Positions 17,931 to 19,871 of a stretch of 64,000 bases of DNA are shown piece by piece (position 1 is the stretch's first letter; each line of letters begins with the position of its first letter). The DNA lies in assembly GCF_009914755.1 (NCBI RefSeq), contig NC_060934.1. One strand, 5' to 3'. A model generated the notes under the pieces. That model saw only the letters and a program-made list of their open reading frames with translations. It did not search any database and was not told the DNA's origin. The translations under genes and the position numbers were made by a program. The stretch is from the human T2T-CHM13v2.0 reference genome, Homo sapiens.

Positions 17931-18532
17931 TTGAAAAAAGAAAAATGCAAAAGACAAATGGAACATTTGGCCGGAAGACAAATGGAACATGTTGATATTT
18001 TGTACCAGCAATGCAGATGACATTTTCTGAAATCTTAGAAACAGAAGTTTATTTCTGTTTGAACTTCCACAATATCTTAGAATCTAATATAGTGAATAGA
18101 GCATAGAATGGTGAATTAAGAGGATCTGGGATCTAGTTCTGATTCCAGCATCAATTAATGAAGTGGACTTGAGCAAATCTATTCTCCCCTTTAATCTTCA
18201 GTGTATCCATCTGTAAAACGAAGATAACATTCATGATTTCTGGGGTTACTTTCTTATTGTGAAATCCTTGAGGAAAATTAGGTTACAGAATGTGTACAGG
18301 AATGACTGGATAGATGGATGAATGAATGAATGACTCAGTCAATCAATACAAAAGAAGCTTTGGATTTTCATGTGTGGTCATAATTCTCCCCAATCATATG
18401 CAGCTATAATTACATATTTTTATGTTTTAGTGATGTTTACTGATTGCACCAAATAAATTCTAATTTTCCAAAAGTTTGATTTGTCTTTTTATTGTGGAAA
18501 GCCTTAGTTGACTTTAATAGATTTATTACAGT

Positions 18533-18549
18533 GCCCTCTAGTGGAAGAA
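18533..18549 (-). promoter_or_regulatory. CTCF-like motif in relic A intron 4
   Basis: The minus strand reads CCACTAGAGGGCAC; the same 17-mer occurs at 49623-49639. Confidence 0.65.
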
Positions 18550-18922
18550 TGAGCATATTGTGTCATCCTGCCGCTGCTTAGTAATCAACAAACCTCTACA
18601 TTTCACACATTTTTAATGAATCAAACCTCTATGCTTCTTGCAGTGAAATTTTCAGTTTTCAAGATCTCACTTGGATTAAAATTCTGGTTTATAACCAATC
18701 TTGAAATTTAGCAACAACAACATGTATTAAGGTAGAATATCATTTTTTAAAAAAACCCTCTCCTAATTATTGACTGATGCTCTTGGAGTAAGTGTACATT
18801 GGGCTATATAAAACATAAAGGACAAACCTCAATGCGTTCTCCAAATGCATGAATTACAACCAGGAAAGAAAGAAGATTCTGATATCCTGAACTCTTTGCT
18901 GGTTTACCATGTATGTTTCTGT

Positions 18923-19054
18923 CACATGTTTCAGGTGGGACAGGGACAGTACCCGTGGAACGCAGAAGAGGAGCACCAGGATGGAGAAACTCTAGCCTCA
19001 CCGACTGTTTAGGTTGTGAGAGCACACGGGGCATGTGCTGTGGGAGTTCTTCAG
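18923..19054 (+). pseudogene. Relic A, PNLIP exon-5 equivalent
   Basis: MFQV...LASPTV*VVRAHGACAVGVLQ vs LFKV...QASQNIRIVGAEVAYFVEFLQ; 132 nt; donor decayed to ctatct. Confidence 0.75.
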
Positions 19055-19762
19055 CTATCTGTCCTCAGGTTACATGGGAACTTACCATCTTACTCACTGG
19101 CCTCGGCTTCAATGTAATTGCTGTTGGTGTAGTAATCAATAGACATTTCTCCCCAGAAATTGAACTTTCCTCTTGATTGATCAGCAACTGAAAGCATATG
19201 AGGGAAATATTTAAGCTCTGCCTACAAACCAATTTCACACAATTAACTGGTCAGTTTTGTTTTTAAAAAGTGACAAAGGCATTTTAGTCAAGCAACAAAG
19301 ATGATGTTTTAAAGCAGAATTTCTCCAGTTACTGATTTCAATTTTAATATATCAACATACCAGATACCAACATACCAAAATATAACATTGGTTTGTATGT
19401 ACAGAGAGTGTTATGGAGTAAATAAAAAGCTAAAAAGAGATGTGATAACTTGAATTCCATAGGATTGAATAATTACCTTAATTAGTACCTTCTAGGACAA
19501 CATCTGATGTGATTAGTTTCTATAACAACTCTTCATGTTAAATTTAGATCACTCCTCATAGCAAAAGGATAATAGAAAGTTCTATGTCAACTGGCTTAAA
19601 AAATATATTTGCATTTTTTAATGTAACTATGGAAAAAAATCCATGAGTAATAAATCTTTGGGGTGCTGAAAATTCTTGCATTGAACAGAGCAAAATCCTG
19701 CCATCTCTCTAGCTTTTGTCACCTGAGTAAATCACGTTTCCAGAGGTTCCCTATATCTTTAA

Positions 19763-19871
19763 TTCTAACACTTCATATTCTTTTTCCCTATTTACATCAT
19801 TGGCAACAGGATAGGCTCCTACCCCATTGAGGAGGATAGGAGGATAAATGAGAACAGTGGGTGAATCACAG
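19763..19871 (+). pseudogene. Relic A, PNLIP exon-6 equivalent (nucleophile elbow)
   Basis: IYIIGNRIGSYPIEEDRRINENSG*ITG vs VHVIGHSLGAHAAGEAGRRTNGTIGRITG; intact phase-1 donor G|GTGAG. Confidence 0.85.

What the first reader, a model, noticed from the sequence alone, without database searches (positions are those of the whole stretch)
18440..19871. Ancient ~1.4 kb paralogy between 18.4-19.9 kb and 49.5-50.95 kb, introns included
Seen: colinear same-strand blocks 31 kb apart, e.g. cagtgaaatttttcagttttcaag / cagtaaaattctcaatactcaag, atggagtaaataaaaagctaaa / atggagtaaatgaaaagctaaa, and cttgaattccatagg / cttgaatttcatggg. Both copies also have a MIR-like element about 300-400 bp upstream of the CTCF-like motif. 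Inference: alignable introns imply A and B are sister duplicates, possibly arising after that MIR inserted. This supports the two-pseudogene model independently of the protein matches.
Basis: seen in the sequence. Interest (0 to 1): 0.7.

Follow-up and report, generated by a model that had tools for sequence, protein, structure and literature searches.

The report
Two fossil pancreatic lipase gene copies
Between the human genes PNLIPRP3 and PNLIP lie two broken copies of the pancreatic lipase gene that the supplied RefSeq gene table does not list; they are about 64% alike, introns included, and were likely made by one tandem duplication and likely already dead before placental mammals diversified, an ordinary process that adds two fossils to this gene cluster.

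Summary
Confirmed, and larger than reported. Window 18105-19871 aligns to 49173-50949 on the same strand (64% over 1618 columns; score 23037, controls at most 2524). Six more blocks carry the colinear chain to 38.3 kb versus 70.7 kb. Both copies also align to PNLIP intron 4, exon 5, intron 5 and exon 6, so they are decayed unprocessed pseudogenes of the PNLIP lineage, not interspersed repeats. Copy A (about 16.5-24.8 kb) keeps exons 5-6. Copy B (44.5-57.5 kb) keeps the promoter and exons 1, 3 and 5-10. Neither shows exons 11-13. A and B are probably sisters (exon tree 93/82; four of five intron alignments), though one rival tree is not rejected. They differ equally at all three codon positions, so no coding selection is visible since the duplication, which dates to roughly 100-150 million years ago (rate recalled). 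The MIR is shared with PNLIP, so it does not mark A/B sisterhood. The CTCF-like core is the longest exact A:B match, and an old repeat splits the same site in PNLIP and PNLIPP1; constraint on it is only suggestive. Ordinary mechanism, apparently unannotated members.

The parts
16493..18924 (+). Copy A: remnant of PNLIP intron 4 (5'-most homology detected in A)
   Evidence: 16493-16771 and 16880-17049 match PNLIP intron 4 and PNLIPP1
18105..18250 (+). MIR-like element in A intron 4, also present at the equivalent place in B, PNLIP and PNLIPP1 (family name recalled)
   Evidence: dispersed genome hits
18532..18544 (-). CTCF-like core in A, no mismatch to the recalled consensus
18925..19054 (+). 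Copy A: decayed exon 5 (small indels, a stop, donor GT lost)
19055..19769 (+). Copy A: intron 5, 65% identical to B and 61.5% to PNLIP over the compared part
19770..19873 (+). Copy A: decayed exon 6; the nucleophile motif GHSLG reads GNRIG, in-frame stop
   Evidence: (E 1.6e-5)
24000..24815 (+). Copy A: intron 9 remnant, paralogous to B 54.9-56.2 kb; exons 7-10 not found in A
32558..35069 (+). 3' flank of A, colinear with the 3' flank of B (57546-61054) in four blocks
38068..38270 (+). Spacer block paralogous to window-extended 70548-70748 (between B and PNLIP)
44460..45192 (+). Copy B: promoter and exon 1 remnant, 62% identical to the PNLIP promoter (73287-74021)
47270..47456 (+). Copy B: decayed exon 3
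   Evidence: (E 0.007)
49173..49300 (+). MIR-like element in B intron 4
49622..49634 (-). CTCF-like core in B, one mismatch to the recalled consensus
49985..50075 (+). Copy B: decayed exon 5 with an internal deletion of about 40 bp
50835..50949 (+). Copy B: decayed exon 6, 1-bp deletion inside the GHSLG motif, donor GT lost
   Evidence: (E 7e-9)
51039..53190 (+). Copy B: intron 6 remnant and two exon-7-like segments (51492-51552 and 53063-53161)
   Evidence: intron 6 E 1.4e-14
53569..53860 (+). Copy B: exon 8, interrupted by a dispersed element of about 169 bp at about 53603-53771 (MER5-like, name recalled)
54311..54406 (+). Copy B: decayed exon 9
   Evidence: (E 1.9e-4)
56293..56410 (+). Copy B: decayed exon 10; intron 10 homology ends at 57524; exons 11-13 not found
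   Evidence: (E 1.9e-5)
57546..61054 (+). 3' flank of B; carries a dispersed LTR-like insertion (about 58791-59250) that A lacks

Best explanation
The two blocks are introns 4-5 and exons 5-6 of two broken copies (A and B) of the pancreatic lipase gene PNLIP, likely made by one tandem duplication of a unit about 31 kb long, and likely non-coding from about the time of that duplication. Inferred order: (1) an early mammalian PNLIP, already carrying the intron-4 MIR, duplicated to give an upstream copy; (2) that copy diverged and probably lost the colipase-binding C-terminal exons 11-13; (3) it was duplicated again in tandem, most simply by unequal crossing-over, giving A and B; (4) both decayed neutrally, each gaining its own insertions and deletions, while an L2-like fragment entered the PNLIP lineage inside the CTCF-like site; (5) much later a separate tandem duplication of 58.1-97 kb made PNLIPP1. 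Shown: homology, exon order, lesions, presence or absence of the insertions. Inferred: sister status, order of events, dates, absence of function.
For: A:B score 23037 against controls of at most 2524. Seven colinear blocks, 3553 columns, 63.4% identity, K2P 0.50-0.57 in every block. Across 264 kb of the cluster only PNLIP and PNLIPP1 give long alignments to A or B, at lower scores than A:B 22482. Exon profiles place exons 3 and 5-10 in order in B and exons 5-6 in A. Genome-wide searches find only MIR-part hits and PNLIP exon 6, and three other blocks hit only themselves. Exon tree ((PNLIP,PNLIPP1),(A,B)) with support 93/82 and an A+B stem of 0.22; 0 of 100 simulations on a non-sister tree reach that stem, maximum 0.15. 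In three-way intron alignments A=B sites (256-278) exceed A=PNLIP (188-197) and B=PNLIP (181-203) in 4 of 5 settings, bootstrap 0.97-0.9995. A vs B differences by codon position are 0.43/0.40/0.34, against 0.25/0.19/0.50 for PNLIPRP2 vs PNLIP. A and B share a Gly-to-Glu state seen in 0 of 81 other lipases.
Against: One of the five alignment settings gave bootstrap 0.57 for A+B, and in a 300-bp part of intron 4 B is closer to PNLIP (K 0.48) than to A (0.54). The AU test does not reject A as sister of PNLIP/PNLIPP1 (p 0.144), nor A+B beside PNLIPRP3 on another backbone (p 0.079). Of eight residues where A=B differ from human PNLIP, five are common in other mammalian lipases (31-54 of about 81), so they are not evidence of sisterhood. 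The simulation has no alignment error. No identical inactivating lesion was found in exons 5-6. The shared loss of exons 11-13 could not be shown at one junction because A lacks intron 10. The A:B codon-position test rests on 184 sites. The genome-wide DNA search is insensitive: it did not find the A:B pair itself.
Confidence: 0.8

Rival explanations
1. B is a chimera: unequal crossing-over between an older upstream copy (A) and PNLIP gave B a PNLIP-derived promoter and exons 1-3 and an A-derived 3' part. A and B are then sisters only from intron 4 onward.
For: The spacer after A matches the spacer after B up to the B and PNLIP promoters. The B:PNLIP promoter distance (K 0.546) falls within the A:B range of 0.50-0.57. 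No promoter or exons 1-4 were found for A.
Against: The PNLIP promoter may be constrained, which would shrink that distance. B lacks exon 4 and most of intron 4, so no crossover point can be located. Distances near 0.5-0.6 from optimised alignments overlap.
Confidence: 0.1
2. A and B are not sisters: each arose separately from the PNLIP lineage within a short time, and their grouping comes from long branches and alignment bias.
For: AU p 0.144 for A as sister to PNLIP; one alignment setting with bootstrap 0.57; one intron-4 segment with B closer to PNLIP.
Against: Intron 5 scores A:B 10948 against 4504 and 3895 to PNLIP. The intron 9 and 3' flank blocks align A to B but not to PNLIP or its own 3' flank. 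0 of 100 null simulations reach the observed stem.
Confidence: 0.08
3. The blocks are independent copies of an interspersed repeat.
For: The MIR-like part and one flank block that looks like an L2 3' end are repeats.
Against: The rest aligns to PNLIP exons 5-6 and their introns in order. The chain runs colinear over 20 kb. No dispersed hits were found for the other blocks.
Confidence: 0.01

Closest known systems
PNLIPP1 (RefSeq pseudogene between PNLIP and PNLIPRP1)
   Same: Unprocessed tandem copy of PNLIP with introns, broken frame and missing exons; aligns to A and B over intron 4 to intron 5.
   Different: Much younger (81-84% identical to its source, K 0.19-0.22), annotated, carries the L2-like insertion that A and B lack, keeps exon 13 but not exons 6-12.
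PNLIP (pancreatic triacylglycerol lipase, Pfam PF00151 + PF01477)
   Same: Closest functional relative at DNA level in exons 5 and 6 of both copies and at or near the top in the other exons of B; same exon order; alignable introns and promoter.
   Different: A and B have lost the GHSLG serine motif, carry stops and frameshifts, and show no PLAT-domain exons 11-13.
Lineage-specific PNLIP-like duplicates in other mammals (wombat, rhinoceros, colugo, lagomorphs, rodents, anteater)
   Same: Show that duplication of PNLIP recurs in mammals.
   Different: These are annotated proteins; none of the 81 compared stands out as an intact orthologue of A or B (top identity 0.40 for A and 0.43 for B, against means 0.32 and 0.37).
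PNLIPRP1 loss in herbivores (Hecker et al. 2019, PMC6386725; passages read)
   Same: Gene death in the same cluster.
   Different: Those are repeated, more recent losses of a functional gene tied to diet; A and B are surplus duplicates that appear to have died far earlier.

Membership tests
Unprocessed (duplicated) pseudogene of PNLIP | Homology to the parent gene including introns, with exons in order | tested here: met
Unprocessed (duplicated) pseudogene of PNLIP | Disabling lesions in the coding sequence | tested here: met
   stops, frameshifts, lost splice donors, lost GHSLG serine, insertion in exon 8, missing exons
Unprocessed (duplicated) pseudogene of PNLIP | No purifying selection on the reading frame | tested here: met
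   A vs B 0.43/0.40/0.34 by codon position on 184 sites; A vs PNLIP 0.44/0.36/0.38
Unprocessed (duplicated) pseudogene of PNLIP | Closest functional parent is PNLIP rather than PNLIPRP1/2/3 | tested here: met
   introns align only to PNLIP and PNLIPP1; tree support 97.8/94; one alternative placement not rejected at p 0.079
Unprocessed (duplicated) pseudogene of PNLIP | No functional transcript or protein | not testable with these tools
   no expression data; no Rfam match in the window
Interspersed repeat | Many dispersed copies in the genome | tested here: not met
   only the MIR-like part has dispersed hits (search of limited sensitivity)
Recent segmental duplication (at least 1 kb and 90% identity; definition recalled) | At least 90% identity | tested here: not met
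   63-64%
Functional CTCF site | Match to the core motif (consensus recalled) | tested here: met
   0 mismatches in A, 1 in B; the only two matches in the window, but 1.8 are expected by chance
Functional CTCF site | Sequence constraint above neutral background | tested here: inconclusive
   longest exact run (17 bp) in 3553 columns, chance about 0.46; retention in both copies given an ancestral core 0.02-0.11, post hoc
Functional CTCF site | CTCF/cohesin occupancy in cells | not testable with these tools
   no ChIP-seq or Hi-C data available

The most novel reading that the evidence does not exclude
The two dead lipase genes survive as carriers of a duplicated CTCF site: the ancestral intron-4 site was destroyed in PNLIP itself by an L2 insertion but kept under selection for over 100 million years in both upstream fossils, where the tandem pair forms the boundary that shields PNLIPRP3 from the very strong pancreatic PNLIP/PNLIPRP1/PNLIPRP2 regulatory domain.
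Probability: 0.15. Interest if true: 0.55.

Novelty: new member of a known kind. Interest (0 to 1): 0.3.

Why it matters
It revises the human pancreatic lipase cluster from five units to seven, in the order PNLIPRP3, A, B, PNLIP, PNLIPP1, PNLIPRP1, PNLIPRP2, and records a burst of PNLIP duplication early in mammal evolution whose products died. It explains much of the 'intergenic' 68 kb between PNLIPRP3 and PNLIP as gene debris. The nested insertions give a relative chronology that can be checked in other mammals. If the paired CTCF-like sites are bound and constrained, this would be a case of a regulatory element outliving the genes that carried it.

Tried and rejected
Default-sensitivity self-BLAST found only a 300-bp piece of the paralogy (E 1.6e-4). 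The Pfam Lipase scan of the genome gave 63 matches and none in A or B, so they are too decayed for that screen. Short blocks at 16.25, 33.39, 58.63, 78.66 and 110.44 kb, first suspected as further conserved sites, are ends of a dispersed repeat. A match between B's flank (58.8-59.25 kb) and the region upstream of PNLIPRP1 was dropped as evidence because it is a dispersed LTR-like element. The longer PNLIP intron 5 is not a shared A/B deletion marker: the extra 1.8 kb looks like a DNA-transposon insertion with nested Alus in PNLIP (family recalled). The shared Ser after GHSLG in A and B is not a shared derived state: pig and horse lipase have it, as do 42 of the 83 proteins with that motif among 104. 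Searches for a promoter and exons 1-4, 7-13 in A and exons 11-13 in B found nothing above reversed-sequence controls. No intact orthologue was seen among the 104 proteins; that search used one 45-residue exon and is not exhaustive. The protein tree was the quick version, 54 rows chosen from the 104 plus four human paralogs, poorly resolved, and did not include A or B. No Rfam match. Literature: ten full-text searches gave no listing that describes these copies; PNLIPP1 had 0 papers. Only listings were seen for most; passages were read in PMC13651202, PMC6487185, PMC5753468 and PMC6386725. Subscription journals, supplements, GENCODE and pseudogene databases were not checked.

Full report
Coordinates are window positions. 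Values above 64000 or below 1 extend the same numbering along chr10 (genome position = 117366000 + value), read from stretches fetched. Exons are numbered as in PNLIP (13 exons). Repeat family names (MIR, L2, MER5, MER58, MLT, Tigger), the CTCF consensus and the substitution rate are recalled; no repeat library was available. What the calls show is that these elements have many dispersed copies.

1. The observation. A sensitive local alignment gives 18105-19871 (A) against 49173-50949 (B), same strand, 1037 of 1618 columns identical, score 23037. Reversed, reverse-complement and 40 locally shuffled controls reach at most 2524, and window tiles that do not overlap B at most 1994. Five of the six quoted motifs are exact; one has a miscounted T. 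The block is 1.77 kb.

2. The paralogy is longer. A full Smith-Waterman comparison of 6.2-40 kb with 40-74 kb adds colinear blocks 24250-24717/55539-55965, 32558-32936/57546-57917, 33392-33532/58629-58779, 33545-33840/59285-59572, 34483-35069/60453-61054 and 38068-38270/70548-70748; the other hits in that comparison are off the chain and look like young L1/Alu-type repeats. The seven blocks total 3553 columns at 63.4%, with K2P distances of 0.50-0.57. After them the B promoter (44460-45192) matches the PNLIP promoter (73287-74021) at 62%. The repeat unit is therefore about 31 kb.

3. What A and B are. Scanning 264 kb of the cluster on both strands, A and B give long alignments only to each other (22482), to PNLIP intron 4-exon 5-intron 5 (10017 and 9158) and exon 6 (4110 and 5569), and to PNLIPP1 (7838 and 6844); B also has one short hit of 2347 in a PNLIPRP3 intron. 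Exon profiles built from the four functional genes find, in B, exon 3 (E 0.007), 5 (0.25), 6 (7e-9), 7 twice (1.8e-5, 0.034), 8 (3.4e-4), 9 (1.9e-4) and 10 (1.9e-5), in order; in A, exon 5 (0.29) and 6 (1.6e-5). The exon-5 hits are weaker than the best reversed-control hit (E 0.047) and rest on their position inside the aligned introns. Exons 11-13 were not found in either copy. B intron 6 and part of intron 10 align to PNLIP; A extends 5' into intron 4 as far as 16493. Both copies are broken. A reads GNRIG at the GHSLG nucleophile motif and has stops. B has a 1-bp deletion there, a deletion of about 40 bp in exon 5, and a dispersed element of about 169 bp in exon 8.

4. Not an interspersed repeat. 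Genome-wide searches with A and B return, apart from self, only MIR-part hits and PNLIP exon 6 (2 and 7 non-self hits). Three flank or intron blocks return only themselves. This search is insensitive, since it missed the A:B pair, so the decisive evidence is the ordered exon-intron homology.

5. Are they sisters? For: the exon tree gives ((PNLIP,PNLIPP1),(A,B)), 93/82 for A+B and 97.8/94 for the group with PNLIP, with an A+B stem of 0.22; 0 of 100 simulations on a non-sister tree reach it; A=B sites lead in 4 of 5 three-way alignments; intron 5 scores 10948 for A:B against 4504 and 3895; intron 9 and the 3' flank align A to B but not to PNLIP or its own 3' flank; one Gly-to-Glu state is shared and absent from 81 other lipases. 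Against: one alignment setting gave 0.57; one intron-4 segment puts B nearer PNLIP; AU p is 0.144 for A as sister to PNLIP; five of eight shared residues are common mammalian states; no identical lesion was found. I put sisterhood over the gene body at about 0.9, including the chimera variant.

6. Timing. MIRs are described as ancient SINEs in PMC5753468 (passages); a reference title there says they amplified before the mammalian radiation (title only). B alone carries two dispersed elements at sites that are empty in A: about 55270-55500 (40 of 415 candidates scored, 69-88% identity) and about 58791-59250 (25 matches; empty site). PNLIP and PNLIPP1 alone carry an L2-like fragment of about 118 bp. 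So these old families were still moving after the duplications. A K2P of about 0.52 at a recalled rate near 2.2e-9 per site per year gives about 120 million years; I give 100-150. PNLIPP1 is far younger (K 0.19-0.22). A and B differ evenly across codon positions (26/61, 25/62, 21/61) whereas PNLIPRP2 and PNLIP differ mostly at third positions, so no coding phase after the A/B split is visible. None of 81 vertebrate lipases compared stands out as an intact orthologue.

7. The CTCF-like motif. The only two matches in the window to the recalled core at one mismatch or fewer are the paralogous sites at 18532-18544 and 49622-49634, and they lie in the longest exact A:B run, 17 bp. Removing about 118 bp from PNLIP or PNLIPP1 restores colinearity and puts the insertion inside this site. 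Against a function: 1.8 matches are expected by chance (50 of 100 shuffles have at least 2); a 17-bp run somewhere has probability about 0.46; retention in both copies from an ancestral core has probability 0.02-0.11 and was tested after the fact; the PNLIP bases right of the insertion differ from the A/B motif, so the ancestral state is uncertain. Binding could not be tested.

8. Mechanism and verdict. Most likely: tandem duplication of PNLIP, early loss of function, a second tandem duplication giving A and B, then neutral decay (confidence 0.8). Rivals: chimeric B (0.1), independent origins (0.08), repeat (0.01). The kind of object is well known; PNLIPP1 in the same cluster is one. These two are absent from the supplied RefSeq table and from the listings of ten literature searches; GENCODE, pseudogene databases, supplements and subscription journals were not checked. 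New members of a known kind, interest 0.3.

Noticed in passing
window 58119-61629 and extended 72678-79885, 95765-96984 vs 97864-114493: PNLIPP1 arose as a tandem copy of about 58.1-97 kb (81-84% identity) that includes B's 3' flank; exons 6-12 are deleted, but the promoter, exons 1-2 and an exon 13 remnant (113222-113291) lie outside its annotated span 106511-111017.
   Followed up: partly
window 8946-9358 and 14381-14793: Direct repeat pair, 94% identical (K 0.06), bounding about 5.8 kb: looks like a provirus-type insertion; the first copy overlaps the RefSeq enhancer 8847-9558.
   Followed up: no
window 24895-25541 and 30139-30828: Second LTR-like pair (85-90% identical) bounding about 5.9 kb, inserted into an old Alu whose halves lie at about 24830-24890 and 30830-31070, inside copy A.
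   Followed up: no
window 51492-51552 and 53063-53161: Copy B has two exon-7-like segments only about 47% alike, suggesting an old internal duplication.
   Followed up: partly
extended position -27009 (PNLIPRP3 intron, 194 bp after the exon-5 equivalent): A third CTCF-like core, on the plus strand; with the two minus-strand sites in A and B it would form a convergent arrangement around the 3' part of PNLIPRP3.
   Followed up: no
window 47817-48082 and 48361-48618: Direct repeat, 88% identical, in B intron 3; both copies match PNLIP intron 3 at 75858-75982, so it is a local duplication.
   Followed up: no
L016:5950-7700 (PNLIP intron 5): About 1.8 kb of DNA-transposon-like sequence with two nested Alus accounts for the longer PNLIP intron 5 (family recalled).
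   Followed up: partly
proteins P0054, P0074, P0081, P0083, P0090, P0094, P0095, P0096, P0104: PNLIP-like duplicates recur in wombat, rhinoceros, colugo and lagomorphs; the quick tree groups them by lineage with poor deep resolution.
   Followed up: partly
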